Positions 7,671-31,709 of a DNA stretch of 64,000 nt are shown in pieces. The translations under genes were made by a program, and so were the position numbers. The number at the start of each line of letters is the position of its first letter. The first letter of the stretch is position 1. Under the pieces are notes generated by a model. It searched no databases, was not told the DNA's origin, and saw only the letters and a program-made list of their open reading frames with translations. The DNA comes from an uncultured Armatimonadetes bacterium (lineage in GTDB: Bacteria; Armatimonadota; UBA5829; DTJY01), in assembly GCA_963717145.1 (NCBI GenBank), contig OY970325.1:1120001-1184000 (forward strand). Direction: 5' to 3'.

Positions 7671-10600
7671 ATGCTCAAGGTAAGACAGGTTGTCTGTACC
7701 GCGATGTTGTTACTCCTGCTGGTTGCATCGGCAGGTTATGCCCAGGAGTTCCGATCCATCGAGATTACGGCATGGGGGTCGGGCTTCGAGAGCGCATCAG
7801 CGTGCACAGCGCTGGTCAACTACGCAGATTCCTGCAATCTCAACTGCATCATCCCTGAACTCAGGCTCAGATGCGACGCGTACTACAATTCCAACTTCGA
7901 ACCCCCCGGCACAGGTGTCGCCCCGTCACCCGCGGGTTTTGACTCTCTGGCCGATCTCATAACCAAGGCCCACGCCGCTGGTATCGAAGTCCACCCCTGG
8001 GTCGTGACTTTCCGCGTCTGGACGACAGTCGACGGACCCGCGCACATGTCTCCGGAGCACATCTGGTATACGCATGGTCCCGGGCAGAGCGATCCGGACG
8101 AGGACTGGCTCATGTACAGCGACACGGGCGCTTGGAGCTACGGCGGCGTGTCCAACCTCGATCCGGGCGTCCCGGCGGTTGAGGACTACCTCATCAGCGT
8201 GTTCATGGATATGGTGAACAACTACGATGTGGACGGCCTCAACCTGGACTACATCCGGTATCCTCAGACGAGTTGGGGCTATAACCCCAAGGCCGTCGCC
8301 AGATTCAACGCCGAGTATGGGTTGAGCGGCAACCCTTCGTCCAGCAATACCACATGGCAGAACTGGCGCAGAGATCAGATCTCCAATCTGGTGAAGCGGC
8401 TGTATCTCGAGATCAAGGCCGTCAAGCCTTGGGTCAAGCTGAGCGCCGACGTATGGAACTCGGCAACCACGGGGAACAACAGCTACTTCCAGAACTGGGA
8501 TCACTGGATGGCGAACCACTGGCTGGACTTCGCGCATCCGATGTCCTACACGTCCACCAACTCCACCTTCAGTGGCTGGTGCGATGCTTATGTAAACAAC
8601 GCGCACGGACGGCACGTATATCCGCTGGTCGATGCCTCAAACAGCATCACCGGGAATGTGCTTCCGCAGATCGACTCCGTGCGAACGCATGACTTCGCCG
8701 GCACCGGGCTCTATGCGTACAGCTCGATCCCGAACAAGTCGGCGCTCCAGAGCGCATTGGTCAGCGGCCCATTCCCGACGGCTGTCGGGATGCCTGACAT
8801 GCCCTGGCTCAGCACCCCCACCCTCGGGATGCTGAAAGGGTATGTTAAGACCGGCGCCGGTGTAGCCATCTATCCTGCGACCGTCACCATCCAGAGCAGG
8901 AACACAAAGAACACCGGCACGGGTTTCTATGGGTTCGTCGACCTGACGACCGGTACATACACCGTTACGGCCAGTGCGCCGGGATACGTCAACGTCAATG
9001 GCCAGGTGACTATCACCGCGGGCCAGGTCGCTACTCTCAACCTGACAATGGGCTCAGACACGACTCCGCCGACGATATCGAACGTGCGGACGGCCAATGT
9101 TCAGGCGACGAATGCCCAGGTCCTCTGGGACACGAATGAGGGCGCGACGAGCCAGGTCGAGTACGGCTTGACCACCGGCTATGGAAACCAGACGACCGAG
9201 AACATGGCGCTCGTTACCGCGCATACCGTCCAACTCGTCAATCTGACGGGGAACACGCTCTATCACTATCGAGTGAAGAGCAGGGACGGCGCGGGCAACC
9301 TGAGGACCTCGAGCGACTACACGTTCACAACCGCGCCAGGTGATACCGTTGCCGATATCATCATCGACAACACATCCGCCACGCTTGTCGGCAGTTGGAC
9401 CACGGGCACATCCGCCACCGACAAGTACGGCACGAACTACTACTACTGCACCACCGCCGCAAGCGAGACCAAGTCGGCACGGTGGACGCCGAACATCATC
9501 ACCGCCGGCAACTACGACGTCTACGTCTGGTATCCCGCGGGATCGAACCGTACCGCCATGGCGCCGTACACCGTGTACTGGAACGGCGGCTCGCAGACCT
9601 ACACCGTCAACCAGAAGGTCAGCGGCGGCGTATGGAACCTCATCGCCGAGACCAAGCCGTTTGCGATCGGCACGGGCGGCTCCGTGAAGCTGGGTAACGG
9701 CACAGGTGAATCGGCGCTGAACGTCATGGCTGACGCCGTCAAGTTCGTCTATCCGCAGGCGGCCGATACCGAAGATCCGACGGTCCCGACGAACCTGAAT
9801 GCCGTCGCGATCTCAGGCACGCAGGTCGATCTCACGTGGACCGCGTCAACCGACAACATAGGGGTCACGGGCTACAAGATCTACCGCGACAGCGTGGAGA
9901 TCGACACGAGCACGACTCCGTCGTATTCCGATACCACCTGCACGTCGATGACGACATACAGCTATCGCGTATCGGCCTACGATGCTGCGAGTAATGAGTC
10001 CGGCCTGAGCACCGCGGACGTCGTGACGACGCCCGACTCAGCGCCGCCTACCGTGCCGACGAATCTCTCGGCAACAGCGATCTCTCAGACTCAGATCAAC
10101 CTGAGCTGGACCGCTTCCACCGATAACGTCGGTGTGACGGGCTACAACGTCTACAGAGACGGCGATTACCTGACCACCGTCGCAGGCGCGAGCTGCTCGG
10201 ACACGAACTGCGTGGCGAATACTCTCTACACCTACCAGGTGACGGCATTCGACGCGGCGGGCAATGAGTCCGGGCTGAGCACGCAGGCGTCGGCTACCAC
10301 GCTGGCCAGCACGGACATAGTGATGGACAACCCGGCCGCCGTGTTTGTCGGAAGCTGGATCGTCGGCACGACGTCCAGCGACAAGTACGGCGCGGACTAT
10401 GAGTTCGCCACGACCGCGGCCACCGAGACGGCGACCGCGACATGGACTCCGAATATCGGTGTCTCCGGGTACTACGTGGTCTACTGCTGGTATCCGCAGG
10501 GTGCGAACCGCTCCTCCGCTGCTCCCTATACCGTGAACTGGAACGGCGGATCGCAGACGGTCAACGTGAACCAGACCACAGGCGGCGGAACGTGGAACAC

Positions 10601-11684
10601 GCTGCTCACCAACAAGCGGTTCCTTTCCGGCACCGGCGGCAGCGTCAAGCTCGGGAACGGCACCGGCGAGGCATCGCTCGTAGTGTTGGCCGATGCGGTG
10701 AGGTTCCTGATGGTGTCGGACGATCTGACTGCTCCCACCGTGCCGACGAACCTGTCGGCGACCGCGGTCTCGACGAGCCAGATCAACCTGACCTGGACCG
10801 CCTCGACTGATAACGTGGCTGTCACCGGCTACCGGATCTTCCGGAACGATGTCGAAGTCGGAACGAGCGCGACCACTTCGTTCTCCGATCCCGGACTGAC
10901 GCAGTACACCACCTACACCTACAAGGTGGCGGCCTATGATGAGATGGGCAACGAGTCGGCCAAGAGTTCGCCGGACTCCGAGACCACCTGGGACGGGCAG
11001 GCGCCGACTGTCCCGACCAATCTCAACGCGACTCCTATCACCAGCACCCGGATAGACCTCACCTGGACCGCCTCGACTGACAATGCAGGCGTGACGGGCT
11101 ACAAGATCTTCCGGAACAGCGGGCAGATCGGGACGTCTCCCACCGCGAGTTACAGCGACACCACATGCTCGCCGAACACAACGTATTCCTACGAAGTGTC
11201 GGCCTATGACGCCAGGGGCAACGAGTCCGCCCACAGTGCGGCTGATGTCGCGACCACGCCTTCCGGCAGCCTGGCGAACATCATCATCGACAACCCGGCC
11301 GCGACGTTCACCGGGACATGGACTACGTCCACCACCGGCACGGATAAGTACGGGACGAACTACAGATGGGCCAGTTCGGCGGTCTCCCAGAGCCGGACCG
11401 CCAAGTGGACGCCGACCATCGCAACTGCCGGAGGGTATGACCTCTACGCATGGTGGTCCGTCGGTTCGAACAGGGCGACGAACTCGCCGTACTTCTGCCA
11501 GTGGAACGGCGGCTCACAGACCGTCAACGTCAACCAGACGATCAACGGCGGCGCGTGGATGAGTCTGCTCACGAACAAGAGCTTCGCGACAGGCACCGCC
11601 GGCTTCATCAGGCTGGGGAACGGCACCGGCTCGACGGGTAAAGTCGTCGTCGCCGACGCCGTGAGGTTCCAACAGGTCAACTAA
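7671..11684 (+). CDS. Secreted GHL10 (DUF187, YddW/DigH-like) glycoside hydrolase with carboxypeptidase-regulatory-like, FN3 and three golvesin/xanthan-lyase-CBD-like domains
   Basis: Signal peptide, FDSLADLITKAHAAGIEVHPW, LDPGVP, NYDVDGLNLDYIRYP and WRRDQI. FN3 motif LTWTASTDNVGVTGY. IIIDN...ADAVRF modules occur three times. Confidence 0.88.
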   Translation: MLKVRQVVCTAMLLLLLVASAGYAQEFRSIEITAWGSGFESASACTALVNYADSCNLNCIIPELRLRCDAYYNSNFEPPGTGVAPSPAGFDSLADLITKAHAAGIEVHPWVVTFRVWTTVDGPAHMSPEHIWYTHGPGQSDPDEDWLMYSDTGAWSYGGVSNLDPGVPAVEDYLISVFMDMVNNYDVDGLNLDYIRYPQTSWGYNPKAVARFNAEYGLSGNPSSSNTTWQNWRRDQISNLVKRLYLEIKAVKPWVKLSADVWNSATTGNNSYFQNWDHWMANHWLDFAHPMSYTSTNSTFSGWCDAYVNNAHGRHVYPLVDASNSITGNVLPQIDSVRTHDFAGTGLYAYSSIPNKSALQSALVSGPFPTAVGMPDMPWLSTPTLGMLKGYVKTGAGVAIYPATVTIQSRNTKNTGTGFYGFVDLTTGTYTVTASAPGYVNVNGQVTITAGQVATLNLTMGSDTTPPTISNVRTANVQATNAQVLWDTNEGATSQVEYGLTTGYGNQTTENMALVTAHTVQLVNLTGNTLYHYRVKSRDGAGNLRTSSDYTFTTAPGDTVADIIIDNTSATLVGSWTTGTSATDKYGTNYYYCTTAASETKSARWTPNIITAGNYDVYVWYPAGSNRTAMAPYTVYWNGGSQTYTVNQKVSGGVWNLIAETKPFAIGTGGSVKLGNGTGESALNVMADAVKFVYPQAADTEDPTVPTNLNAVAISGTQVDLTWTASTDNIGVTGYKIYRDSVEIDTSTTPSYSDTTCTSMTTYSYRVSAYDAASNESGLSTADVVTTPDSAPPTVPTNLSATAISQTQINLSWTASTDNVGVTGYNVYRDGDYLTTVAGASCSDTNCVANTLYTYQVTAFDAAGNESGLSTQASATTLASTDIVMDNPAAVFVGSWIVGTTSSDKYGADYEFATTAATETATATWTPNIGVSGYYVVYCWYPQGANRSSAAPYTVNWNGGSQTVNVNQTTGGGTWNTLLTNKRFLSGTGGSVKLGNGTGEASLVVLADAVRFLMVSDDLTAPTVPTNLSATAVSTSQINLTWTASTDNVAVTGYRIFRNDVEVGTSATTSFSDPGLTQYTTYTYKVAAYDEMGNESAKSSPDSETTWDGQAPTVPTNLNATPITSTRIDLTWTASTDNAGVTGYKIFRNSGQIGTSPTASYSDTTCSPNTTYSYEVSAYDARGNESAHSAADVATTPSGSLANIIIDNPAATFTGTWTTSTTGTDKYGTNYRWASSAVSQSRTAKWTPTIATAGGYDLYAWWSVGSNRATNSPYFCQWNGGSQTVNVNQTINGGAWMSLLTNKSFATGTAGFIRLGNGTGSTGKVVVADAVRFQQVN

Positions 11685-11701
11685 CAGACCGCCGCTTCCC
11701 G

Positions 11702-11738
11702 ATCGTTGGGGATGGAGTTGGACTCCATCCCCAACGAT
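11702..11738. repeat. Short palindromic element; a doubled copy lies inside rlmN
   Basis: ATCGTTGGGGATGGAGT-TGG-ACTCCATCCCCAACGAT. Confidence 0.85.
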
Positions 11739-11745
11739 TAGCGCG

Positions 11746-11779: not shown

Positions 11780-11823
11780 CCGAGTAAGTGACTGCACCAC
11801 AAGCGGTTGTTTCCGTCACAAAC

Positions 11824-12688: not shown

Positions 12689-12785
12689 TTCAGTACCCTC
12701 CCGTAGATGGATTTTTGCTCCCTCAAGCGTCGTCGGCATCGTTGCCCGATGGTTTCCTGCGGTCCGGATCCAGAGCTCTGCGCTC

Positions 12786-12911
12786 GCACAAATGTGCTCT
12801 GCATCCGCACAAATGTGCTCTTCATTCGAACAAATGTGCTCTGCATCCGCACAAATGTGCTCTTCATTCGAACAAATGTGCTCTGCATCCGCACAAATGT
12901 GCTCTTCATTC
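12786..12911. repeat. 21-bp tandem array, 6 units alternating with a 42-bp higher-order period
   Basis: GMACAAATGTGCTCTGCATCC alternates with GCACAAATGTGCTCTTCATTC. Confidence 0.95.
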
Positions 12912-13032
12912 GCATGAAGATCCATCGGATCCTGGCTGGAGAGCATGTGATGCCGCTGTGGCCTCAGGGGGATGGGATCGAGATCAGAGTGTGGACTTTC
13001 GAAGTAACACCGAGCGGCTGCCCAGAGGAGGG

Positions 13033-16400: not shown

Positions 16401-16912
16401 CGATATATACTGCTATGGGCAACACCTTGAATGTCGCCCGTAGTCTTAACAACATGGCAACTGTCCACGACAAACTGAATGAACCTGGGCTGGCTGCAAA
16501 TCGCTTTGCCGAATCGTGCGGTCTGTACCGAGACGCAGGGGCGTTGGGCGATCTTGCATTCACCCTGCGAAATCTGGCTCGATGTTATGAGAATGCTGGC
16601 GAGCACGAGTACGCTATACGTCCATTCCTTGAAGCTGAGGCTCTCTACCGGCGGCTCGAGCGCGAACGGGAGACTGAAGAAACTGCCAACGAGATATGCC
16701 GGGCAAGACAGAGCATCGGCTTCCAAGAGTTTCGGCGGCTAGCGGAGGCAGCGTACGGCGTGCTCCCTGATGACCTGAAACCGTTCTCACACTACCACGA
16801 GTATATTGCGGACACCACCCTGCGAAAGGAGACAAGGGCTGGTCGAAATGATCCATGTCCGTGCGGCAGCGGGAAGAAGTACAAGAGGTGCTGCTTGGGG
16901 AAAGACGCATAG
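13454..16912 (+). CDS. HD (HD-CE-like) phosphohydrolase - STAND/NB-ARC-like ATPase - winged helix - TPR repeats - SEC-C motif
   Basis: HD motifs FTDHTPTHS, YLHDIGM, EHAQRS, LADELD and HWYVH. STAND motifs FTGRADEL, GIGGTGKS, LVVIDN, GNHPMAI and MHQLVR. 40-aa TPRs. C-terminal GRNDPCPCGSGKKYKRCC. Confidence 0.88.
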   Translation: MADLEAYLQEKSPDLHKKYIEITEACKKLWGNTKLDWFTDHTPTHSARLVRYLNQMLAPIEQTDRFLTPDECFVLLSSCYLHDIGMQDMRRTGKTEEKLSDEEFRRIRDEHAQRSFDMIKEGTLRPDGINSVDIRLEGQDAWARAMAWVSKAHSTRYYDESVEYITSDPLIVRGNRLRGPFLCALLLLADELDLTDERVDFSQAVLKDLSPETLLHWYVHHYIELVEIVNQQVSITYRIHEELKPYADLLKAHVAGKLNGQFHRCSPIYREAAGIGGLELATAKVNMSEGFKRPMPAEVLELLKKEAEPDESESPEDNAPGTAIRVRPPQPSSLFTGRADELEMLEGLVSDHRVSMITGIGGTGKSQLVAQYVAERTHFPSDSVYWFDLAYKQTADDIAIALGFSEMLKKERMTAQEKGANLADIIDRTKCLVVIDNIQDCQDEALGHTIHQSVDRLSRSRILLVGKSRPKFVVVLEPRLVIKQINGLKDDGIAYARKLRTQWEIDITDAETVDMCREVGNHPMAIEVAFNVLRYEEKPRDLLQKIVEFTKDSDDPEALSARLLSELHSHATKPQRDLAYRLSVFRRPFPRSAAGFAAGREDWQADFKELVDKLMFRKEDDEFHMHQLVRAFCNDKLSDTAGTSAHVGAAAFYKSLRGNGANIAFEHEIVHHLLRGGSRDEAVDILVSHGRDFLIWGHTSALLDMLAEVDNRGGLTDRLLNLRGRLYESLAQYDLAMVDLDAARLSPDPECRAEALYRKGAIWLARCDLQKAEGLLEASLSIAQEHHIPRLIAYNTDAFGRMAEGQGRLHDAMARFQSAYAILQNVPQRDEHDIGVAIRNIGAVLHGQGDLKRAMEKYEESLQIRIAVGDQLGIGSCVHDIGSILQDQGNLDGAMAKYEESLQIRITVGDQSGIAGCTRAVGTILEAKADLEGAMAKYEESVAIYSAIGEQSGIGAGICSIGRVLQRRGDLQGAMARYEQSVAIYTAMGNTLNVARSLNNMATVHDKLNEPGLAANRFAESCGLYRDAGALGDLAFTLRNLARCYENAGEHEYAIRPFLEAEALYRRLERERETEETANEICRARQSIGFQEFRRLAEAAYGVLPDDLKPFSHYHEYIADTTLRKETRAGRNDPCPCGSGKKYKRCCLGKDA

Positions 16913-20570: not shown

Positions 20571-23500
20571 ATGAAGTCAGCACGCTCCGTCGTCTGGGCA
20601 ATCGCGCTCGTGACCCTGTTGAGCTTTGTTATCCCGAGCGCGGCTCAGAACACATCCGGTCCGGAAGGGTCCGGCTTACCGGCATTCGCGGCCAGCAACA
20701 CTGAGCCGTGGACCGGACCACTCATGCCGATATTCGAGAAAGCAGCGAAGGCACATGATATCCCGCTGCCATTGCTCCTCACACTCGCAAACTTCGGCAG
20801 CGCATTCGAAAATCGCGGCGACGCTCCAACCATCGAAACCGGCTACGGTGTGATGGCACTCCGCGAGAATGCGGTCCTCAACTCGCTTGCAGAGGGCGCT
20901 GATCTGGCCAAAGCTCCAAAGGCCAAAGTCAAGGTCAACCCGCAGGCGAATATCAACGCCGCGGCGGCGCTCCTGTCGTCGTATGCGAAGAAGATGGGCA
21001 TCGACCGCAGCCAGGGACTTGCCGCCTGGCTCGAACCGATCATCAAGTACGCGGGCCTCGATGAGGAGAACAGCAAGTTCTTCGCATATGAGGTGTTCGA
21101 GAGACTGCTGATCGGCCTGGACGTCAAGAACTCCCGCGGCGAAACCTTCTCGTTCCCGCCGCAGGATATCGGGGCCATCGATATCGGCCCGCTGAGACCT
21201 GCCGATATTCGATTTGCCAACGATGGCTCCGGCGCTCAGTCGTTGGGCACTGACTCCAGTATCGGGGAGGCGCTCTCTGCTCAGTATCCCCCGGCAATCT
21301 GGGATCCGGCGGCGACCTGCAACTACAGTGCCTACTACACGGGCAAGAACACGGTCGTCATCCATACTATCGAGGGTACGGCGGCCGGCTGCAGGTCCTG
21401 GTTCAAGAACTGCAACGCCCAGGTATCCGCTCACTACGTGACATCGGAAGCGGGCGGCGTTTGGCAGTGCGTGGATGAGACTTACAGAGCGTGGCACGTG
21501 GGATGCGCTAACAACTACTGCATCGGCATCGAGAACGAGGGCTATGCCGGCTCTCCAAGCCATCCCGCAAGCCTCTACAACGTCGCAGGACTTCTGACCA
21601 GAGACATCTGCGACAGTTGGGGCATCCAGAAGCAGCACAACGGCTGTCCGCCCGGTGTCCTCGGACACGTGGATATCAACAACTGCGTATGCGGCGGCAC
21701 TCACTGGGATCCAGGCGGTGGCTGGGACTGGGGCTACTTCATGGGAGTCGTGGTAGGCGCTCCGCCTCCTCCGACCTATGCCGCCCACTACGTCGGCCAG
21801 TCGTATCCCGCGACCATGGTCGCCGGATCGACCGCGGTGGCGTGGGCTGAATACATGAACGACGGCACGGCGACCTGGGGTCATGCCGCTACACGACTCG
21901 GCACTCAGGGCCCTCAGGACCGCTGCAGCCCGTTCTACGAGGCCGGCAACTGGATCAACTGTGGCCGCCCGAGTGAAGTCGACCAGAGCGCCGTCTCGAC
22001 CGGCCAGGTCGGGCGGTTCACCTTCGTCATGAGAGCACCGATGACTCCAGGCGCCTATGTGGAGCAGTACCGGCCTCTTCAGGAAGGCGTGACATGGTTC
22101 GGCGGTGACGTCACCTTCTGGATCACAGTTAACGCTTCCACCGGAGGCATCATCGGTACCGTCCGCAACTCGGTAGGCGGCGCAGGCATCTCCGGCGCTA
22201 CGGTCAGTATCGACGGCGGCGGATCGACTACGACTGATGCGAACGGTTACTACTCGTTCAGTGGGCTCAACGCCGGCGGGTACACACTGAATGCCAGCAA
22301 GTCGGGCTTCAATCCGGCAAGCGCCGGGGTTAGCGTGACCGCGGGGTCCAACACGATTCAGGACTTTTCGCTCACACCGACCGATACCCAGGCGCCGACT
22401 GTGCCGACCAACCTGGCGGCCGTTCCGGTCCTGCCGACTCAGATCAACCTGAGCTGGACTGCTTCGACCGACAACGTCGGAGTCACCGGATACAAGGTAT
22501 TCCGAGACGGCAACTTCCTAGGAGCAGTCAGCGGAACCACCTATCCCGACGGCGGCCTTGCGCCGAACACCAGTTACTCATATCGCGTGTCGGCCTACGA
22601 CGCGATCGGCAATGAGTCCGCTCAGTGCGGCGCGGTCGTCGATCTACTCCGCCGAACGAGTACATCATCGACAACACGGGGGCGACGTACACCGGGTCAT
22701 GGTCGACTGCTACCGCTTCCACTGACAAGTACGGCGCCGACTACCGATTCGCCAGCACCGCAGTCAATGAGAGCCGGACTGCGCGCTTCACGCCGAATCT
22801 GCCGAATGGCGGTACGTTCGACATATATGCATGGTGGACGGTCGGAACTAACAGGGCGACCAATTCGCCATACACCGTCTACTACAGCGGCGGCTCGCAG
22901 ACTATCAACGTAAACCAGCAGGTCTCCGGCGGAACGTGGAATCTGCTCTTTACCGGCAAGACCTTCGCCATAGGCACGGGCGGATACCTGAAACTCGGCA
23001 ACGGTACCGGCGCAACCGGCAAGATCGTTGTTGCCGATGCAGGGCGGTTCATCATGACCTCGGTGGATGCAATCCCGCCGAGCGTCCCGACGAATCTCGC
23101 TGGGAACCCAGTGTCGATGACCCAGGTGAATCTGACCTGGACCGAATCGACCGACAACGTCGCAGTGGCCGGTTACAACGTCTACCGCGACATGGTTCTG
23201 ATCGGCTCGACCGCGGGGGTCGCCTACAACGACACGACCTGCGCGCCGGGCACGGCATACAGCTACCAGGTAGCAGCGTATGACACGGCTGGCAACGAGT
23301 CGGCCCTGAGCGCGGCGGCAAACGTGACCACACCGATGGATACTGAGGCGCCGAGTATTCCGATGAACCTCGCCGGAACCGCGATCTCCGAGACCAGGGT
23401 AGACCTGACGTGGACCGCTTCAACCGACAACATCGGAGTGACCGGCTACAAGGTCTTCCGAGACGACGTCCAGATCGGGACGAGCGCAACCACTGCTTAC

Positions 23501-26344
23501 TCGGACACCACTTGCACCATAAACACCACGTACATGTACAAGGTGTCGGCTTATGATGCTATCGGCAACGAGTCCGCAAGGAGCACTGCCGCCGAGGTCA
23601 CGACTCTGGGCAATGACACAGAGGCTCCGACCGTTCCTGCGAACCTCCAGGCGACCGCGGTTTCCGCCACTCAGGTGGATCTGGCATGGGAGGGCTCGAC
23701 GGACAACGTCGGAGTCACCGGTTACAGGATCTTCCGCGACAATGTCGAGATCGCCACAAGCGCCTTGACGACCTATTCCGACACAACCTGCGCCGAGTAT
23801 ACGGCCTACACCTATGAGGTGTCAGCGTACGATGCATCGAGCAACGAGTCGGCAAGGAGCGCGGCTGCCAACGTCACGACACTCGACGTGACGGCTCCCG
23901 GCATCCCGGCCAATCTGGCCGCGACCGCGGTATCCGGCACTCAGGTAGATCTGATCTGGACCGCCTCGACTGACAATGTGGCCGTCACAGGCTACAAGGT
24001 CTTCCGGGACAGCGTTCAGATCGGTACGAGCGCGACGGCTTCGTACTCCGACACGACCTGCTCGCCTGCGACGACCTACACCTACGAGGTCTCGGCCTAC
24101 GACGCAGCCTCGAACGAGTCCGCCAAGAGCGCGCCGGATCAGGCAACCACCCCTGATACTGTCGCTCCGAGCGTTCCGACCAACCTGAATGCAACGGCGG
24201 TCTCGGGCACCCAGGTCGATCTGACCTGGACCGCCTCGACTGACAATGTGGCCGTTACCGGCTACAAGGTCTTCCGCGACAGCGTCCAGATCGGCACGAG
24301 TGCGACTGCTTCGTACTCCGATACGACCTGCTCGCCTGCGACGACCTACACCTATGAGGTATCGGCTTACGACGCAGCGACCAACGAGTTGGCGAAGAGC
24401 GCGCCCGACCAGGCGACGACTCCTGACACGATCGCTCCGACCGTTCCGACGAACCTCGGGACGACTGTGATATCCGGCACTCAGATCGACCTGAGTTGGA
24501 CCGGCTCCACCGATAACGTTGGGGTCACTGGCTACAAGGTCTATCGCAACAGCGTGCAGATAGGAACCAGCGCGACTCCGTCGTACTCGGATACGACCTG
24601 CTCGCCCGCGACTACCTACACCTATGAGGTAGCTGCTTACGACGCAGCCTCGAACGAGTCGGCAAAGAGTGCGCCCGCTCAGGGGACGACTCCCGACACG
24701 ATCGCGCCGAGTGCGCCCACCAACCTGGTGGGAACTCCGATAGCCTCGACTCGGATTGACCTGAGTTGGACTGCATCGAGCGACAACGTGGGAGTGACGG
24801 GATACAAGGTCTTCCGCAACAGCGTGCAAATCGGCACGAGCGGTACGACCAGCTACTCCGATACCACCTGCAGCCCCAACGTAACCTACACCTACGAGGT
24901 GTCGGCCTACGATGCGGCCCAGAACAACTCGGGCCTCAGCAATGCCGTCCAGGTGGCGACGGTGGCCAACACCGACATCATCATGGACAACACGTCGGCA
25001 ACCTACGCAGGCAGTTGGTTCACCGGCACAGCGGCGACCAACAAGTATGGCGCTGACTACCGGTACATCACCACTCAGGCTACTGAGACGGGGACTGCGA
25101 CGTGGACTCCCACAATCGACGTGGCGGGCTACTACAACGTCTACTGTTGGTATCCTCATGGAGGCAATCGGTCCGCGATAGCACCGTACACCATTCAGTG
25201 GGACGGCAGCTCGCAGACCGTTGCGGTCAATCAGCAGATCAACGGCGGCGTATGGGTCGCACTGGTCTCGGCCAAGCGGTTCCAGGCCGGCACAGCCGGT
25301 TACGCCAGAGTGGGCAACGGTACTGGTGAGGTCGCACTAAGCGTGATGGCGGATGCCGTCCGGTTCCTGCTGGTATCGGACGACCTGACTGCTCCGAGCG
25401 TACCGACGGATCTCGCGGCCAACGCCGTTTCGTCGAGTCAGATCGATCTGACCTGGACTGCATCCACCGATAACGTCGGTGTCAGCGGCTACAGGATCTT
25501 CCGTGACAACGTCGAGATAGGAACGAGCGCAACGACCTCCTACTCGAGCACCGGGCTCTCGGGAGGTACTCTCTACACGTACAAGGTGACGGCTTACGAC
25601 GCGATGGGCAATGAATCCGCCCAGAGCGCGCCCGCGAGCGCCACCACCTGGGACGGCATTCCGCCGACGGTTCCGACCGGCGTCGCAGCCTCGGCTGTCG
25701 GTCCCCAGAGGATCAACATCTCCTGGACCGCCTCCACGGATAACGTGGGCGTGACGGGATACAAGGTCTTCAGGAACGGCGGGTATGTTGGTTCCTCGGC
25801 GACCACGAGCTACTCCGACGGCGGCCTCGCACCGAACACGGGATACACCTATACCGTGTCGGCCTACGATGCCGCGACCAATGAGTCCGCTCAAAGCACG
25901 GGCGCGGGTGCGACGACTCCTGGATACCAGGAGACCATCATCGACAACCCGGGCTGCACATGGACCGGCGTGTGGACAACATCGACCTCGGGCACGACAA
26001 AGTACGGTGCGGACTACAAGTACGCCAGTACCGCCGTGAGCGAGGGCAAGACCGCGCGATGGACGCCGACGATTGCCTACGGCGGCAACTACGACATCTA
26101 CGCGTGGTGGACGGCGGGATCCAATAGAGCCACGAACTCCCCGTTCTTCGTGCAATGGAACGGCGGCTCTCAGACTGTCAGCACCAACCAGTCTACCAAC
26201 GGTGGAGCATGGAGAGTGCTGCTGACCGGCAAGAACTTCGCGGCCGGCACTGCCAGCTACCTAAAGCTGGGCAACGGAACAGGCGCTACCGGCAAGGTCG
26301 TTGTTGCCGATGCAGCGCGTTTCGTGCAGGTCAGCGGAGACTGA
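20571..26344 (+). CDS. Secreted N-acetylmuramoyl-L-alanine amidase (Amidase_2) with lysozyme/SLT-like N-domain, Ig-like and carboxypeptidase-regulatory-like domains, about 10 FN3 and 3 golvesin-like domains; one frameshift near 22640
   Basis: Motifs VVIHTIEG, SAHYV, AWHVG, IGIENEG, LGHVD and HWDPG. GYGVMAL...PQANINAAAALL is SLT-like. ORFs 20571-22913 and 22625-26344 join seamlessly. Confidence 0.85.
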
Positions 26345-26378
26345 TAGCCAACCGCTCGACAGATCGCACGTAACATCG

Positions 26379-26412
26379 AGGGCAGGGAGTGCATGCATTC
26401 CCTGCCCTTTTT
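26379..26412 (+). terminator. Terminator, AGGGCAGGG/CCCTGCCCT stem (copy 2)
   Basis: AGGGCAGGGAGTGC-AT-GCATTCCCTGCCCTTTTT. Confidence 0.8.
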
Positions 26413-26485: not shown

Positions 26486-26513
26486 TTGACATGTCGGTGG
26501 CATAGAGTATAAT
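26486..26513 (+). promoter_or_regulatory. Consensus sigma70 promoter for the Amidase_3 gene
   Basis: TTGACA-16 nt-TATAAT. Confidence 0.75.
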
Positions 26514-26620
26514 AGGCGGGAAAGGCTCATCGAGCCAACCAGGGATCGTTTTCTGCTGCATCCATCCGAAGGCCACCAGCGATCGTAGGAGCAGGTGGGC
26601 CGACACATCTAATGGGAGGG

Positions 26621-29600
26621 ATGCAATTGAAAGCCTCACGTATTACACCCCCGCTTGCACTGCTCATGGCAGTGCTGGGATGCTTCCTGCTTGCAGGCAG
26701 CTCCCCCGCCGGGCCGGTGGCGTACATCGACCCCGTAGATGGCGACATATTCGTTGTCGATCATCCGGATGCCGTTGACGCTGTTTCGGCTCTGGCACTA
26801 CTCTCTTCACCACCGGCCAATATCCCCTTTGTACAGCAGGTGATATCGGCGGTACCGCCCGGCGCTAAGCTCCTCGACTTCGCCATGGAAGGTGACACGG
26901 CCGTGGTCACTTTCTCGAAGAACATGGTGACGGGACCCGTTGGCGAGGGTCAACTGGCCACTGTGTTCGACCAGGTGAGATGGACACTCTGGAACTATGG
27001 TTTCCAGGGCGATGTGAAGATCATGGTCGAAGGCAACCTGCTGTCGGACTACACTGATCCAACACCATTTGTCGGACAGCGTCCGTCTTGGGATCCGGAC
27101 GCTGTCGGGCTCGGCGGGCACAGCATCACGCTCTCGCCGGGACACGGCTCGGTACTGGAACGGCAGCGGATGGCATACCCAGCGTCCGGTGTACTGCTCT
27201 CCCCTGAACCAGGAGGACTTCCACACTCTAGAGATGGCGGCGACCCTCAGGACCTTCCTGTCGCAGGACAGCATGAACGTCAAGATGGCGCGCCAGATCA
27301 GCAAGACCTACGGCACCTACTCCGTCAGCGGCAAGCCGTGGTGGCAGATGGCGGGATGCTACTGGCTGAAGCAGGCCGGCTATCCCTGCAGCGTATACGG
27401 CAGCTCGTCCGGCTGCACTCTGGGCAGCGGCGCTGACGAGCACAGCGATGACATCCGAGCCAGGCCGCTTGCTTCCGACTACGATGCCACCAACATCTAC
27501 GTCTCGCTGCACACCAATGGCTACGGCGGCAACTGCAACGGTACCGGCTGCCCGAGAGGCACCATCACGTACTATGACTGCAGTTCGGAGCACGCATCCT
27601 GGTGCACGGTCAGTCAGAACCTGGCCGGGGACATACAGAATGCGCTGGTCAGTACGATCCGCTCCTACTATGACTCCGGTTGGACCAACCGCGGTACGGG
27701 CAACGGCAACGGCAACTACGGCGAGATCCGCATACCGAACAGAGCCGCCGTTCTCATCGAGTTGGCCTTCCACGATAGCTGCACCACGGACGCCCTCGCT
27801 CTGCGCGACAACTGGTTCCGCAGCGTATCTATGTGGGGCATCTACAAGGGCATTTGCGACTACTTCGGCGATACCCCGACGTGGGGGTTCTACTCCGACG
27901 AACTGGTCAGCAATACCATCCCGAGCACTATGAATACCGGCGAGACCAAGTCGGTCAGCGTCACCTTCCGAAACCGAGGTGTACTCTGGACCAATGCCAG
28001 GGCTTACAAACTCGGCGCGGTCGGTGACAGCGATCCGTTCACCGCTACGACCCGTCAACTGATCTCCGGAGAGGTCGGTCCGAACACGACCTACACGTTC
28101 ACATTTAACCTGACCGCTCCGAGCACGCCGGGCACTTACACCACAGACTGGCGCATGGTTCGTGACGGGTACACATGGTTCGGCGCTACCTGCTCTAAGG
28201 CTATCACGGTGTCAGGCAGCGACCTCCAGGCGCCGACCGTGCCCCAGAACCTGTCGGCAACGGCCGTGTCACCGTCTCAGGTCAACCTGACCTGGAGCGC
28301 TTCGACGGACAATGTCGGGGTCACTGGGTACAAGGTCTTCCGCGACAGCGTGCAGATCGGTACCTCGGCGACGGCCAGCTACTCTGACACCACGGCAACG
28401 GCAGCCACGACCTATAGCTACCAGGTCTCCGCTCATGATGCCGCCGGGAACAACTCCGCACTGAGCACCGCTGCCAACGTGACCACACCGGCGGTCGATG
28501 TGATCGTCGACAATCCGGCCGCCGTCCTTACGGGCGCGTGGTCTACAGGCACTGCATCCACCGACAAGTACGGCGCGGACTACCAGTTCGTAGGTACTGC
28601 TGCGACCGAGACCAAGAGCGCCAAGTGGACGCCCACCCTCACGTCAGGCGGCACATACAACGTGTACTGCTGGTACACTCAGGGAACCAACAGATCGACT
28701 GTTTCCCCGTACACCGTATCCTGGAATGGCGGCTCGCAGGTCGTTAATGTCAACCAGCAGACGAACGGCGGATCGTGGAGGACCTTGGTCTCCAGCAAGC
28801 CGTTTGCCGCGGGAACAGCCGGCTACGTCAGGCTCGGCAATGGCACTGGAGTAACCGGCGATGTCGTTGTCGCCGATGCAGTCCGGTTCGCAACCGTGTC
28901 TATCGACGTCACCGCTCCGACGGCTCCCTCGAACCTGGCCGCGACCGTTATCTCCGAGACGCAGGTGAACCTTACCTGGACCGGCTCGACCGATAACGTC
29001 GCCGTCACCCAGTATCGCATATACCGTGACGGATCTGAGATAGCGACGAGTACGACGACGTCCTACTCCGACACTAGCTGCTTGCCCGGCAACACCTACG
29101 AATACGAGGTGTCCGCGCTCGATGCCGCCGGAAACGAGTCACCGCTCAGCAATCTCGTCACTGCCACCACTGAGGGCGATTCGACGGCGCCAAGCACTCC
29201 GACCAACCTGGCGGCCACCGTGCTGTCGCAGACCGAGATCAGCCTGAGTTGGACCGCCTCGACCGACAACATCGGTGTCGCCGGATACATCATCTACCGG
29301 GATAACGAGGAACTCGCCACTAGCGCGACCACCTCGTTCATAGATACCACCTGCGCTCCGAGTACGACGTACTCGTATCAGGTGTCGGCATACGATGCAC
29401 GGATGAACGAGTCGGTGCTGAGCGAAGCGGTTCAGGCGACGACTCAGAGCAATGACACCGCCGCTCCGACAGTTCCCACGGAACTCGCTGCAACGGCGGT
29501 ATCCGGCACTCAGATCGACCTGACCTGGGTCGCCTCCGTGGACAACGTAGCGGTCACCGGGTACAGGATCTTCCGCGATAACGTGGAGATCGCGACAACC

Positions 29601-31643
29601 GCCGACCTCTCGTATTCGGACACCGGCCGCACCCCGGCGACCTCATACGGCTACAAGGTGTCCGCCTATGACGCGGCAACCAACGAGTCAGCACCGTGTG
29701 ATCCCGTGAGTGCGACGACGTTCGACACGATCGCCCCGACAACACCGAGCGGTCTGTCGGCTACGGCGGTATCCGGCACTCAGATCAACCTGAGTTGGAC
29801 CGGATCGACCGATAACGTAGGCATCTCGGGGTACAAGATCTATCGCAACGGAGTGGAGTTCAGCTCGACCGGCGGCACATCCTTCTCCGACACGACCTGC
29901 GCGCCGGCGACGACCTACACCTATCAGGTCTCGGCCTACGACGACGCTACCAACGAGTCGGGGCTGAGCAATACGGCGGGCGCGACAACGTTCGATACCG
30001 CGCCTCCGACCGCGCCGACCAACCTGGCGGGGACCGCCATCTCGCAGACCCAGATCAACCTGACCTGGACTGCATCGACTGACAACGTCGGAGTGACCGG
30101 CTACAAGGTCTTCCGAGGCGGCGTCCAGATCGGTACCAGCGGGACGACCAGCTACTCCGACACCACATGCAGCTCATACACGAGCTACATGTACGAGGTG
30201 TCCGCCTACGATGCGGCCCAGAACAACTCCGCGCTGAGCAATCAGGCGAACGCGACTACTCTGCCGTACACGGATCTCATCCTGGACAACACGGTGGCGA
30301 CCTTCACGGCAACGTGGTTCACCAGTTCATCAGCCACCGACAAGTACGGCACGAACTATCGGTACATCACCACTCAGCCAACTGAGACGGAGACCGCCAC
30401 CTGGACGCCGGATGTGGACATCGCCGGCTACTACACGGTCTACTGCTGGTATCCGCAGGGATCGAACAGGTCGGGGGCAGCTCCATATACCGTCTACTGG
30501 GACGGCAGTTCGCAGACCGTGGCTGTCAACCAGAAGTCGAACGGCGGCTCATGGAGGACCCTGGTCAGCACCAAGAGGTTCCAGGCCGGAACAGCAGGAT
30601 ACGTCAAGCTCGGCAACGGCACGGGTGAGGTCGATATGAGCGTCATGGCGGATGCGGTCCGGTTCCTCCTCATATCGAGCGACCTGACTGCTCCGACCGT
30701 ACCGACGAACCTCGCAGCAACCGCGACATCAGCCACTCAGATCAGTCTGACGTGGACGGCCTCGACCGACAACGTAGCAGTGACCGGTTACCGGATCTAC
30801 CGCAATGACGTCGAGGTAGGGACGAGCGCAACCGCCTCCTACTCCGACAGCGGGCTGACCCAGTACACCACGTACACCTACAAAGTCGCTGCCTATGATG
30901 CGATGGCAAACCAGTCGGCCCAGAGCAGCCCGGACTCCGAGACCACCTGGGATGGTCAGGCGCCTACGGTTCCGACGGGACTGACAGCCACCGCTGTCGG
31001 ACCGCAGAGGATCAACCTGGCCTGGACCGCTTCCACCGATAACGTGGGAGTCACCGGCTACAAGATCTTCCGTGGCGGCGTAGAGATAGCCACCTCGGCG
31101 ACGAACAGCTACTCGAACGGCGGTCTCGCACCGAGCACCGCCTACACGTTCACCGTTGCGGCATACGACGCTCGCAACAACACGTCGGCACAGAGCACCA
31201 GCGCCGGTGCGACAACGCCCGCCTACCAGACGATCATCATGGACAATGGTGTGGCGACCTGGACCGGCGTGTGGACTACGTCCACCTCAGGTACGGACAA
31301 GTACGGAGCGGACTACAAGTACGCCAGTACGGCCGCGAGTGAGGGCAAGACCGCCAGGTGGACACCGACCATCGTCTACGCAGGCAACTACGACACGTAC
31401 ACCTGGTATTCGAAGGGCACTAACAGGGCGACGAACTCGCCCTTCACCGTCTACTGGAACGGCGGTTCTCAGACCGTCGCCATGAACCAGACCATCAACG
31501 GCGGCTCGTGGAGGACTCTGCTCACAGGCAAGAGCTTCCTCGCGGGCACGGCGGGCTACGTCAAGCTTGGCAATGGTACCGGTGCGACCGGCAAGGTTGT
31601 TGTCGCTGATGCGGTCAGGTACGTGCAGACCAGCGGGAACTAG
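26621..31643 (+). CDS. Secreted GerMN + Amidase_3 N-acetylmuramoyl-L-alanine amidase with Ig-like, about 8 FN3 and 3 golvesin-like domains; frameshift near 27148
   Basis: GerMN motif SAVPPGAKLL...AVVTFS...QVRWTL...VKIMVEG. Amidase_3 motifs LSPGHG, QED, YVSLHTN and VLIELAFHD. ORFs 26612-27436 and 27069-31643 join. Confidence 0.85.
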
Positions 31644-31675
31644 ACTCCGCTGACTGATGATGCACGACGTACAAC

Positions 31676-31709
31676 GAAGGGCAGGGGTTGATCCCCTGCC
31701 CTTCACTTT
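31676..31709 (+). terminator. Terminator, AGGGCAGGG/CCCTGCCCT stem (copy 3)
   Basis: GAAGGGCAGGGG-TTGAT-CCCCTGCCCTTCACTTT. Confidence 0.7.

What the first reader, a model, noticed from the sequence alone, without database searches (positions are those of the whole stretch)
7671..31709. Three complementary peptidoglycan-hydrolase heads on one shared FN3/golvesin-like stalk
Seen: three 1300-1900 aa secreted proteins lie within 24 kb. Their heads are unrelated: GHL10; SLT-like + Amidase_2; GerMN + Amidase_3. Their tails share one plan: golvesin-like - (FN3)n - golvesin-like - FN3 - FN3 - golvesin-like, with n = 2, 7 and 5. The amidase Zn-binding motifs appear intact. Known: amidases strip stem peptides, and the E. 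coli GHL10 enzyme DigH/YddW cuts denuded glycan strands. Inference: this is a modular cell-wall-degrading set, for scavenging or predation on other bacteria or for envelope remodelling. The common tail may target all three enzymes to one ligand or scaffold, with stalk length setting their reach.
Basis: partly seen in the sequence, partly recalled or inferred. Interest (0 to 1): 0.78.

Follow-up and report, generated by a model that had tools for sequence, protein, structure and literature searches.

The report
Cell-wall-cutting enzymes sharing a sugar-binding tail
Three giant secreted enzymes that cut bacterial cell wall carry the same tail of three sugar-binding modules, and close relatives of that module sit mostly on cell-wall-cutting enzymes in at least five bacterial phyla, so it may be an unrecognised cell-wall-binding module.

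Summary
Gene A (7638-11684) is intact. In this assembly genes B and C are each broken by one single-base frameshift, at about 22641 and at 27152. These are probably assembly errors. Pfam confirms GHL10, Amidase_2, Germane plus Amidase_3, and three Golvesin_C modules per protein.

The "SLT-like" piece scores below the Pfam threshold, and its canonical catalytic Glu position holds an invariant Gly. The "golvesin-like" module is a CBM35-like beta-sandwich. Its nearest solved relative is the C-terminal module of a xanthan lyase.

The shared tail is not a generic spacer here. Of its 27 closest non-window relatives, 24 carry GHL10 or amidase heads. Six of those fuse the B-type and A-type heads in one chain. 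In 78 loci from species-representative genomes of five or six phyla, 69 of 105 Golvesin-bearing ORFs carry one of six peptidoglycan-hydrolase families.

More distant Golvesin_C domains sit on unrelated proteins. The FN3 number varies among orthologues, so "stalk length sets reach" is not supported.

Best reading: these are secreted multimodular peptidoglycan hydrolases aimed at the wall by a trivalent CBM35-like module. This is a new variant of a known design. Ligand binding was not tested.

The parts
7638..11684 (+). Gene A, 1348 aa, intact. Domains in aa: signal-like N-terminus; GHL10 57-316; CarboxypepD_reg 399-471; divergent FN3 481-562; Gol1 575-703; FN3 x2 716-885; Gol2 895-1023; FN3 x2 1035-1204; Gol3 1216-1344.
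   Evidence: The head matches Cwp19 (5oq2, E = 4.4e-18) and E. coli DigH (25% identity, E = 5e-18).
20571..22643 (+). Gene B, first frame. Domains in aa: signal-like N-terminus; SLT-like region 55-152; Amidase_2 260-382; NBR1-like Ig 428-520; CarboxypepD_reg 527-602; FN3 611-690. The frame breaks at 22641-22643.
22643..26344 (+). Gene B, second frame. Window coordinates: Gol1 22664-23050; FN3 x7 23084-24952; Gol2 24980-25366; FN3 x2 25400-25909; Gol3 25937-26323.
   Evidence: Tandem Repeats Finder sees the FN3 array at 23624-24919 (period 270, 4.8 copies).
26378..26409 (+). Terminator-like hairpin (14-pair stem followed by a T run) directly after B.
   Evidence: a consensus scan only.
26486..26513 (+). 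Promoter-like site TTGACA-16-TATAAT (12 of 12 matches), about 100 nt before the start of C.
   Evidence: a consensus scan only. Five sites were found against 3.5 expected in shuffles.
26612..27151 (+). Gene C, first frame: signal-like N-terminus, Germane (GerMN) aa 56-142, and the start of Amidase_3 (...SPGHGS). One extra base at 27152 shifts the frame.
   Evidence: The intact orthologue is P0122.
27153..31643 (+). Gene C, second frame. Window coordinates: rest of Amidase_3 to 27857; NBR1-like Ig 28035-28211; FN3 28239-28478; Gol1 28503-28889; FN3 x5 28923-30251; Gol2 30279-30665; FN3 x2 30699-31208; Gol3 31236-31622.
31676..31704 (+). Terminator-like hairpin (12-pair stem) directly after C. 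Its stem sequence resembles that of the hairpin after B.

Best explanation
A, B and C are paralogous, Sec-exported, multimodular peptidoglycan hydrolases. At least two more paralogues lie elsewhere on the same 5.37-Mb contig.

Each protein has a catalytic head. A has a GHL10 glycosidase. B has an Amidase_2 preceded by a probably non-catalytic SLT-like domain. C has a GerMN domain plus an Amidase_3.

Each also has a common tail. In it, three CBM35-like 'Golvesin_C' modules are held apart by FN3 domains.

Inferred mechanism. The three modules bind a cell-wall glycan, most likely the peptidoglycan glycan strand itself. Three copies would give avidity on insoluble sacculi. The amidase heads strip stem peptides. 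The GHL10 head cuts the bared glycan.

The proteins are far longer than a periplasm is wide: ten to thirteen tail domains in a row. There are several paralogues, and the neighbours are secreted glycan-degrading enzymes. I therefore think they act outside the cell on foreign or dead cell walls, for nutrient scavenging or antagonism.

Shown by computation: domain make-up, paralogy, the fused forms, the association across phyla, and the CBM35-like fold. Inferred: the ligand, the order of action, the location and the ecological role.
For: Domain make-up and paralogy:
- Domain families lie above Pfam cut-offs and the domain map is consistent across the three proteins.
- The tail was inherited as a unit. 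Gol3 copies are 68-78% identical, Gol2 of B and C 73%, and the FN3 after Gol2 70-84%. Recent tandem FN3 duplications occur inside B (F4/F5 92% aa, 86% nt).

Close relatives of the tail:
- 30 of the 120 listed hits carry Golvesin_C, and 3 of those are the window's own. Of the other 27, 24 carry peptidoglycan-hydrolase heads: 11 Amidase_2, 6 GHL10, 1 Germane plus Amidase_3, and 6 with both Amidase_2 and GHL10 in one chain.
- Two of the 24 (P0042, GHL10; P0043, Amidase_2) are on a contig of the same length as the window's own proteins.

Genome scan of species representatives:
- 105 Golvesin-bearing ORFs lie in 78 loci from 36 genomes of Armatimonadota, Verrucomicrobiota, Planctomycetota, Sumerlaeota and Omnitrophota, plus one Actinomycetota record.
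- 69 of the 105 carry GHL10, Amidase_2, Amidase_3, GH25, M23 or SpoIID. All 49 head segments that my own HMMs called were confirmed by Pfam above its cut-off.
- L027 fuses GerMN-Amidase_3-Gol-Gol-GHL10 in one ORF.

Second sample: a profile of 98 such domains was run against 5.8 billion proteins. By my hand count of that table, 50 of the 118 non-window hits carry GHL10, Amidase_2/3 or GH25.

Tree of 294 Golvesin domains: all 110 domains from peptidoglycan-hydrolase proteins fall on one side of the midpoint split (203 leaves). None falls among the other 91. FastTree support for the split is 78.

Clade-specific residues: N63, G61, W57 and N84 are conserved in that clade far more than in the other.

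Fold: the AlphaFold2 model has pLDDT 97.8. Foldseek finds xanthan lyase 6f2p (TMq 0.87, 38% identity), then CBM35 modules, several of them solved with uronic acids, and CBM6. The sequence profile matches 6f2p residues 913-1035 at E = 1.3e-25.

Known members:
- A member of this InterPro family was shown to bind glycans (Cbeg4/5; PMC9166713, section 6 read).
- GHL10 has two peptidoglycan-active members. DigH is specific for denuded glycans (PMC12288456, abstract). Cwp19 is called a lytic transglycosylase (PMC6016235, title and start of abstract only).
Against: - No binding or activity datum exists for any of these proteins.
- The two members of the domain family with known partners point elsewhere: an N-glycan motif (Cbeg4/5) and a xanthan enzyme.
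- 36 of the 105 locus ORFs have no peptidoglycan-hydrolase domain. They carry M28 x4, LamG x3, Ig/PKD x3, NAGPA, CBM6, FN3-like-only x2 or NBR1-only; 15 have no family; 6 were not sent to Pfam.
- More distant Golvesin_C arrays sit on cytochromes, RHS, RCC1 and other proteins.
- The loci were chosen by likeness to a domain taken from a peptidoglycan hydrolase and by one peptide pattern. That biases the sample and partly enforces the DKYG..Y motif.
- Copies within one protein share labels, so the low number of label changes on the tree (12 against a shuffled mean of 56) overstates independence.
- The GHL10 head has Tyr where the Cwp19 paper puts its likely catalytic Asp196. One GHL10 enzyme, DogH, is reported to act on starch (PMC9967864, title only).
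- The SLT-like domain has Gly at the canonical Glu position.
- B and C are frame-broken as sequenced.
- Export beyond an outer membrane is assumed, not shown.
Confidence: 0.55

Rival explanations
1. The same enzymes act as the producer's own autolysins. The Golvesin_C tail would hold them on the cell's own wall or septal peptidoglycan for daughter-cell separation or remodelling, as AMIN, LysM and SPOR do for AmiC, NlpD and others.
For: - In other phyla the same module stands as a single copy on small (about 340-400 aa) Amidase_2, Amidase_3, M23, GH25 and SpoIID proteins. These look like ordinary housekeeping hydrolases.
- DigH and the division amidases act in tandem at the E. coli septum (PMC12288456, abstract).
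- The GerMN-plus-Amidase_3 head of C is kept in the C-type orthologues P0006 and P0122.
Against: - The window proteins carry 10 to 13 tail domains in a row and reach up to about 1900 aa. That is hard to fit in a periplasm (an inference from domain counts).
- The genome holds at least five paralogues, and single Verrucomicrobiota MAGs hold up to 13 Golvesin ORFs.
- Tandem arrays of 3-4 diverged Amidase_2-Gol genes (L046, L051, L055) look like an expanded arsenal rather than housekeeping.
- The neighbours in the window are secreted glycan-degrading enzymes.
Confidence: 0.25
2. The tail is an ordinary CBM array for a polysaccharide other than peptidoglycan, such as an acidic exopolysaccharide, a capsule or the producer's own surface glycan. 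It would merely tether various surface enzymes. In that case the GHL10 head need not act on peptidoglycan.
For: - The nearest solved relative is on a xanthan lyase.
- CBM35 structures among the fold hits are complexes with glucuronic or anhydrogalacturonic acid (PDB titles).
- The InterPro family had 108 architectures among 865 UniProt proteins (PMC9166713, section 6).
- Non-wall heads occur in the same clade: M28, LamG, NAGPA and Glyco_hydro_cc.
- The GHL10 subgroup differs from DigH and Cwp19 at the DDY motif.
Against: - A lineage-specific surface polymer would not explain why one domain clade accompanies six different peptidoglycan-hydrolase families in five or six phyla.
- It would also not explain why GHL10 is fused with amidases in one chain.
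Confidence: 0.15
3. B and C are real, recent pseudogenes, so in this organism the trio no longer works as a set.
For: - Each gene has one frame break in the window.
- The breaks are not in long homopolymer runs (sequence).
- A third paralogue, P0043, ends out of frame.
Against: - The frames stay open for 3.7 kb and 4.5 kb after the breaks, with all domains scoring normally.
- An unrelated sulfatase gene in the window has three frame breaks within 1.5 kb but an otherwise well-preserved sequence. Together with a single 5.37-Mb contig, that pattern suggests indel errors of the assembly.
- Intact orthologues exist.
Confidence: 0.12

Closest known systems
Clostridioides difficile cell-wall proteins (Cwp family), e.g. 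Cwp19 = GHL10 head plus three CWB2 repeats
   Same: Different wall-active heads share one block of three wall-binding repeats. Cwp19 has the same head family as gene A (5oq2, E = 4.4e-18) and three C-terminal wall-binding domains (PMC5765458 passages; PMC3144791 abstract start).
   Different: The binding module here is a CBM35-like Golvesin_C, not CWB2. No CWB2 was reported by Pfam. The modules are spaced by 5-10 FN3 domains. The organisms are Armatimonadota-like, not Firmicutes. The ligand is unknown, whereas the Cwp19 paper says PSII mediates CWB2 binding. That other Cwp members carry amidase heads is recalled by me, not seen in a call.
E. coli septal pathway: amidases AmiA/B/C followed by DigH (GHL10) on denuded glycans
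   Same: The same pairing of enzyme classes is found here side by side, and in relatives in one polypeptide. The head of A is 25% identical to DigH (E = 5e-18).
   Different: DigH is a small periplasmic enzyme of 439 aa without this tail (L079). The window's subgroup has LDYIRYP where DigH has FDDYFY. Preference for denuded glycans is untested here.
Golvesin/Xly CBD-like domain (IPR033803, Pfam Golvesin_C, 'CBM6-CBM35-CBM36_like_2'): xanthan lyase C-terminal module and Bacteroides lectins Cbeg4/5
   Same: It is the same domain family: 259-285 bits against a 31.6 cut-off; 6f2p at E = 1.3e-25 and TMq 0.87. Cbeg4/5 also combine FN3 with this module and bind glycans.
   Different: Those members are on a lyase or have no enzyme at all, and the known ligand is an N-glycan motif. 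The window's domains belong to a clade that holds all the peptidoglycan-hydrolase-linked copies in my tree and has its own conserved residues.
Known peptidoglycan-targeting modules (LysM, SPOR, AMIN, SH3b, choline-binding repeats)
   Same: The role is analogous: a non-catalytic module repeated on many different wall hydrolases. SPOR binds denuded glycans made by amidases (PMC6895207, abstract start only).
   Different: There is no sequence or fold relation. Pfam found none of these modules in A, B or C.

Membership tests
Pfam Golvesin_C (PF25275) / CBM35-like modules | Profile match above the curated cut-off | tested here: met
   284.5, 258.8 and 267.7 bits against a cut-off of 31.6, with three stretches in each protein. 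Nine copies were mapped.
Pfam Golvesin_C (PF25275) / CBM35-like modules | Beta-sandwich fold like CBM35/CBM6 | tested here: met
   The model has pLDDT 97.8 and is all-beta. Foldseek finds 6f2p at TMq 0.87, and CBM35 and CBM6 entries at TMq 0.5-0.65.
Pfam Golvesin_C (PF25275) / CBM35-like modules | Binds a carbohydrate, and which one | not testable with these tools
   Only inference is available, from the heads the module accompanies.
GHL10 (PF02638), DigH/Cwp19-type wall glycosidase | Profile match and similarity to characterised members | tested here: met
   124.4 bits against 27.9. Cwp19 E = 4.4e-18. DigH 25% identity, E = 5e-18.
GHL10 (PF02638), DigH/Cwp19-type wall glycosidase | Residues the Cwp19 paper proposes for the active site (Trp127, Arg132, Asp195, Asp196, Tyr197, Gln295, Tyr297) | tested here: inconclusive
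   In the phmmer alignment Trp, Arg, the first Asp and Tyr297 are kept. Asp196 aligns to Tyr, Tyr197 to Ile and Gln295 to Met. A one-residue shift would align LDY with DDY. D and R of 'D..R' are at least 90% conserved in 31 Golvesin-linked GHL10 domains.
GHL10 (PF02638), DigH/Cwp19-type wall glycosidase | Cleaves peptidoglycan glycan strands | not testable with these tools
   Support is indirect: fusion with amidases in 6 proteins and in L002, L003, L005 and L027.
Amidase_2 (PF01510) | Profile match above the cut-off | tested here: met
   84.1 bits against 26. AmpDh2 4bj4 E = 1.1e-4. The NCBIfam AmpD match is partial and below its cut-off.
Amidase_2 (PF01510) | Zinc-binding and catalytic residues | tested here: inconclusive
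   IGIE, GHxDI and DPG line up with AmpDh2, and an upstream His (VVIHT) is present. Which positions are the ligands is recalled, not taken from a call.
Amidase_3 (PF01520) | Profile match above the cut-off | tested here: met
   35.6 bits against 27 on the second frame alone. CwlV 1jwq E = 0.0015, with SxH(A/T)N and LxE aligned.
Amidase_3 (PF01520) | One uninterrupted reading frame through the catalytic domain | tested here: not met
   There is an extra base at 27152 between ...SPGHGS and YWNGS.... It is probably an assembly error, but this is unproven.
SLT lytic transglycosylase (PF01464) | Profile match above the cut-off | tested here: not met
   16.7 bits against 21.3, E = 0.0057. The profile found no PDB hit. 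hhalign against E. coli Slt70, EmtA and MltC gave E = 0.009 and probability 4.5%. The Atlas search, run with homologue P0028 instead of the window protein, gave an SLT-named cluster at 0.93 with SLT on 33% of its members.
SLT lytic transglycosylase (PF01464) | Catalytic Glu of the E-S motif | tested here: not met
   In the hhalign alignment the invariant E-S of the E. coli enzymes faces G-S, which is invariant in the three aligned family members. The alignment itself is weak.
Cwp/CWB2-type or choline-binding wall-protein families | CWB2 or choline-binding repeats | tested here: not met
   Pfam reported none in A, B or C. The likeness is in design only.

The most novel reading that the evidence does not exclude
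The Golvesin_C clade found here is a previously unrecognised peptidoglycan-binding carbohydrate-binding module. At least six wall-hydrolase families use it (GHL10, Amidase_2, Amidase_3, GH25, M23, SpoIID) in Armatimonadota, Verrucomicrobiota, Planctomycetota, Sumerlaeota and Omnitrophota.

Several CBM35 modules among the fold hits were solved with sugars that bear a carboxylate. The module may therefore recognise the free lactyl carboxylate of MurNAc on glycan strands that amidases have stripped. That would make it a functional counterpart of SPOR.

If so, the Armatimonadota giants would be processive, self-targeting machines. The amidase would create the binding site for the tail and the substrate for GHL10.
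Probability: 0.35. Interest if true: 0.75.

Novelty: new variant of a known kind. Interest (0 to 1): 0.55.

Why it matters
Wall hydrolases are aimed by a small set of known modules: LysM, SPOR, AMIN, SH3b, CWB2 and choline-binding repeats. A CBM35-like module that fills this role in several poorly studied phyla would add a new targeting principle. It would also give a handle for annotating hundreds of 'hypothetical' or 'fibronectin type III' proteins.

It would further point to organisms that dismantle other bacteria's walls, which bears on necromass turnover and on the search for new lytic enzymes. My full-text searches found no paper linking this domain to peptidoglycan hydrolases. The searches were 'golvesin', 'CBM6-CBM35-CBM36 / IPR033803 / PF25275 / cd14488' and 'CBM35 + peptidoglycan hydrolase + cell wall binding'. 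Subscription journals are not covered.

Tried and rejected
- SLT-like domain. A profile of 3 sequences found no PDB hit. The AlphaFold2 model built from 3 sequences was poor (pLDDT 51, all-helical), so no fold search was run on it.
- Protein atlas. The first call did not complete. The second said the window sequence is not held. I then used stored homologues, as the tool suggests.
- NCBIfam gave nothing specific for A, B or C. The only hits were FN3-driven partial matches to 'exoglucanase CbhB', far below its cut-off.
- The gene after C is a galactokinase-like GHMP kinase below its cut-off. It gives no evidence of peptidoglycan-sugar salvage.
- Unassigned head family. About 300 aa of unassigned head precede many Verrucomicrobiota Golvesin arrays. 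I tested whether this is GH25-like. Pfam matched GH25 in 1 of 12 members at E = 0.042. The PDB profile search found nothing meaningful. hhalign against two GH25 heads gave probability 0.9%. The Atlas put a 'GTA TIM-barrel-like' cluster nearest at 0.90. The family stays unassigned.
- Programmed frameshifting was considered for B and C and dropped. The breaks differ in direction, and an unrelated gene shows three breaks.
- The window's own genome was not among the species representatives scanned. Its name and its other paralogues' surroundings stayed unchecked. Cluster look-up gave no names.
- One alignment call failed on wrong coordinates. It was replaced by a local alignment.

Full report
WHAT IS IN THE SEQUENCE

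The region holds three large + strand genes. A is 7638-11684, 1348 aa, one open frame.

B and C are each two overlapping frames. B is 20571-22913 plus 22625-26344. C is 26612-27436 plus 27069-31643. Three-frame translation places the breaks at 22641-22643 (...NESAQCGAVV | STPPNEYIIDN...) and at 27152 (...LSPGHGS | YWNGSGW...).

Intact orthologues read straight through both places. P0001 and P0002 have 1939 and 1938 aa (...AVIGTTPPSEY...). P0122 has 1671 aa (...SPGHGKYWNGS...). So B lacks one base and C has one base too many.

After the breaks the frames stay open for 3.7 and 4.5 kb, with all domains scoring normally. An unrelated sulfatase gene at about 47.99-49.5 kb (- strand) shows three frame changes in 1.5 kb of otherwise well-preserved sequence. 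A further paralogue from the same contig, P0043, ends out of frame. The source contig has 5,366,867 bp. I read this as indel error of the assembly rather than gene decay, but only reads can settle it.

DOMAINS

Pfam and my own HMMs give these maps.
- A: signal-like N-terminus, GHL10, CarboxypepD_reg, a divergent FN3, then Gol-FN3x2-Gol-FN3x2-Gol.
- B: signal-like N-terminus, an about 200-aa helical region, Amidase_2, NBR1-like Ig, CarboxypepD_reg, FN3, then Gol-FN3x7-Gol-FN3x2-Gol.
- C: signal-like N-terminus, Germane (GerMN), Amidase_3, NBR1-like Ig, FN3, then Gol-FN3x5-Gol-FN3x2-Gol.

The SLT-like region of B is weak. Pfam SLT scores 16.7 bits against a cut-off of 21.3. The profile finds no PDB hit. 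hhalign against E. coli Slt70, EmtA and MltC gives E = 0.009 and probability 4.5%. The Atlas search could not take the window protein, so it was run with its homologue P0028 (residues 45-215); it gave an SLT-named cluster at 0.93 as second neighbour.

In that hhalign alignment the three SLT motifs line up. The invariant catalytic E-S faces an invariant G-S. If the fold is SLT-like, it is probably not a canonical lytic transglycosylase.

The Amidase_2 head aligns with AmpDh2 through IGIE, GHxDI and DPG. The Amidase_3 head aligns with CwlV through SxHxN and LxE. The assignment of these positions to zinc binding and catalysis is recalled.

The GHL10 head matches Cwp19 (E = 4.4e-18) and E. coli DigH (25% identity, E = 5e-18). 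It has LDYIRYP where both have FDDYFY. The Asp196 that the Cwp19 structure paper proposes as catalytic aligns to Tyr (PMC5765458 passages). In 31 Golvesin-linked GHL10 domains the D and the R of this motif are at least 90% conserved. This is therefore a distinct GHL10 subgroup.

THE TAIL IS ONE INHERITED UNIT

Modules at the same position in the three proteins are more alike than modules within one protein. Gol3 copies are 68-78% identical, Gol2 of B and C 73%, and the FN3 after Gol2 70-84%. Inside B the fourth and fifth FN3 are 92% identical (86% at DNA level), which shows recent tandem growth. DNA identities of 58-75% among the nine Golvesin modules show that the paralogues are old.

WHAT THE GOLVESIN-LIKE MODULE IS

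A profile of the nine copies matches residues 913-1035 of Paenibacillus xanthan lyase (6f2p) at E = 1.3e-25, and a CBM35 (2vzp) at E = 0.05.

With an alignment of 98 domains, AlphaFold2 gives an all-beta model of pLDDT 97.8. Foldseek finds 6f2p at TMq 0.87 and 38% identity. After it come CBM35 modules, a xanthan-binding module and CBM6. Several of the CBM35 entries are complexes with glucuronic or anhydrogalacturonic acid.

The InterPro family (IPR033803, 'CBM6-CBM35-CBM36_like_2') had 865 UniProt members in 108 architectures. Two Bacteroides members, Cbeg4 and Cbeg5, are lectins of FN3 plus this module. They bind a Gal-GlcNAc-Man-Man motif (PMC9166713, section 6).

IS THE TAIL A GENERIC SPACER?

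At the level of the whole family, yes. The profile finds 8565 representative clusters at E <= 0.001. Among the 36 best by summed score, only 4 have GHL10 and one of those also has Amidase_2. The others have multihaem cytochromes (3), PKD (2), cadherin-like (2), RHS, RCC1, lactonase, beta-helix, NAGPA, Glyco_hydro_cc, CHB_HEX and Ig parts, or nothing recognisable.

At the level of close relatives, no. Four lines of evidence support this.

1. Close relatives of the tail. I searched with the tail of A. 30 of the 120 listed proteins carry Golvesin_C, and three are the window's own. Of the other 27, 24 have wall-hydrolase heads: 11 Amidase_2, 6 GHL10, 1 Germane plus Amidase_3, and 6 with both Amidase_2 and GHL10. 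The remaining three are P0003 (partial), P0057 and P0113. The six fused proteins (about 2320 aa) read SLT-like-Amidase_2-FN3-Gol-FN3-GHL10-Gol-FN3x4-Gol-FN3-Gol. That is a B-type head joined to an A-type protein. P0042 (GHL10) and P0043 (Amidase_2) come from a contig of the same length as the window's proteins. The genome therefore has at least five such genes.

2. Scan of one genome per species. This returned 78 loci. They hold 105 stop-to-stop ORFs of at least 200 aa with a Golvesin module.
- 45 have GHL10, Amidase_2 or Amidase_3 by my HMMs. All 49 head segments were confirmed by Pfam.
- Of the other 60, 54 N-terminal parts were sent to Pfam and 6 were too short.
- Pfam added Amidase_2 x11, Amidase_3 x5, M23 x5, GH25 x2 and SpoIID x1. 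It also found M28 x4, LamG x3, Ig/PKD x3, NAGPA, CBM6, FN3-like-only x2 and NBR1-only. 15 had no family.
- In total 69 of 105 carry a wall-hydrolase domain.
- By the record titles the genomes are Armatimonadota, Verrucomicrobiota, Planctomycetota, Sumerlaeota and Omnitrophota, plus one Actinomycetota record and some unnamed ones.
- L027 fuses GerMN-Amidase_3-Gol-Gol-GHL10. L046, L051 and L055 hold 3-4 tandem Amidase_2-Gol genes.

3. Second sample. A profile of the 98 domains was run against 5.8 billion proteins. By my hand count of that table, 52 of the 120 listed have GHL10 (37), GH25 (8), Amidase_2 (5) or Amidase_3 (2). Two of these are the window's own. 18 have other recognisable heads and 50 have none.

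4. Tree. In a FastTree of 294 Golvesin domains, all 110 from wall-hydrolase proteins fall in one clade of 203 leaves. None falls among the other 91 leaves (support 78). The clade has its own conserved residues: N63 94% against 40%, G61 91% against 22%, W57 90% against 57%, and N84 92% against 60%.

Caveats. The loci were picked by likeness to a domain from a wall hydrolase and by the single pattern [SAT][SAG][TS][DNT]KYG[AT][DN]Y. That enforces part of the motif. Copies within one protein share labels. FastTree support is moderate.

HOW IT MOST LIKELY WORKS

The one thing common to GHL10, Amidase_2, Amidase_3, GH25, M23 and SpoIID is the substrate. The simplest reading is that this Golvesin_C clade binds peptidoglycan or something firmly attached to it.

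Three modules on a long FN3 chain would give avidity on an insoluble sacculus. The amidases would strip peptides and GHL10 would cut the bared strands. DigH does this after the division amidases in E. coli (PMC12288456, abstract).

Several points make action outside the cell on foreign or dead walls more likely to me than self-remodelling, though this remains inference:
- the size of the proteins;
- the number of paralogues;
- the neighbours, which are a GH42-like enzyme with CBM4_9, GH38, sulfatase, a heparinase-like beta-propeller protein and a 1630-aa secreted protein.

B and C seem to be separate transcription units. A terminator-like hairpin follows each gene, and a 12-of-12 sigma-70-type site precedes C (consensus scan only).

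'Stalk length sets reach' finds no support. The variable FN3 run is 7 in B-type proteins (window, P0001, P0002). It is 5 (window, P0122) or 4 (P0006) in C-type. It is 2 (window, P0033) or 4 (P0019) in A-type.

COMPARISON WITH WHAT IS KNOWN

The design is classical: different wall hydrolases sharing one repeated wall-binding block. Examples are the C. difficile Cwp proteins with three CWB2 repeats, among them the GHL10 enzyme Cwp19, and the pneumococcal choline-binding proteins (recalled). What is new is the kind of module and its spread.

My searches found no paper that ties Golvesin_C, IPR033803 or CBM35 to peptidoglycan hydrolases. I therefore file the finding as a new variant of a known kind. 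The bolder reading is that a new peptidoglycan-binding CBM clade has been spotted.

VERDICT

The feature is real, coherent and not due to chance. Three details fall: the intact ORFs, an active SLT domain, and a role for stalk length. One caveat remains, on the GHL10 subgroup. Interest 0.55.

Noticed in passing
window 47988-49540 (- strand): A sulfatase gene (Pfam Sulfatase / SGSH_C) is split over three frames by three frame changes within about 1.5 kb, yet its sequence is otherwise well preserved. This suggests indel errors in the assembly.
   Followed up: partly
window 13454-16912 (+): A 1152-aa protein lies between A and B. It has an HD-CE domain, a P-loop NTPase (AAA_22), many TPR repeats and a C-terminal SEC-C motif. 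The architecture is STAND-like. Its function was not examined.
   Followed up: no
window 1985-6877 (+): A 1630-aa secreted-looking protein has a CehA/McbA-like metallohydrolase N-terminus (below cut-off), a CHB_HEX_C domain and many SdrD_B/SpaA-like repeats.
   Followed up: no
window 12784-12914, 41107-41280 and 17288-17362: There are tandem arrays with 21-bp periods: 6.2, 8.3 and 3.6 copies, the last also readable as 7 bp x 9.6. The first two lie between genes and create spurious repetitive ORFs. The third lies inside the GH42-like gene.
   Followed up: no
loci L009, L013, L015, L016, L019, L020, L024, L029, L030; proteins P0271-P0278, P0057, P0113: A common, unannotated head of about 300 aa follows a signal peptide (...DGG[VI]D..NLGKGDWIY...DAEAEWE...) and precedes Golvesin/FN3 arrays, mostly in Verrucomicrobiota. 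24 of the 27 sequences examined form one BLAST cluster. Tests for a GH25 relation were not significant. The Atlas neighbour is 'GTA TIM-barrel-like' at 0.90.
   Followed up: partly
L046 8037-12951; L051 16-3650; L055 2029-6863: Tandem arrays of three or four diverged small genes, each Amidase_2 plus one Golvesin module, occur in Verrucomicrobiota-like MAGs.
   Followed up: partly
L002 2909-10408 and L003 1197-8696: ORFs of the same length (2499 aa) with identical HMM and Pfam scores appear in two MAGs whose titles name different phyla (Armatimonadota and Sedimentisphaerales). This is probably a binning artefact in one of them.
   Followed up: no
window 26378-26409 and 31676-31704: The two terminator-like hairpins after B and C share nearly the same stem sequence (GGGCAGGG...CCCTGCCC). 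They may be a repeated element.
   Followed up: no
window 31825-33708 (+): A 627-aa galactokinase-like GHMP kinase (TIGR00131 E = 2e-27, below cut-off) lies directly after C. It is much longer than ordinary galactokinases.
   Followed up: no
protein P0043 (same contig as the window, outside it): A further paralogue has the order SLT-like, Amidase_2, two unassigned repeats of about 150 aa, FN3x3, Gol, FN3x2, Gol. Its last Golvesin module runs out of frame near the C-terminus.
   Followed up: partly
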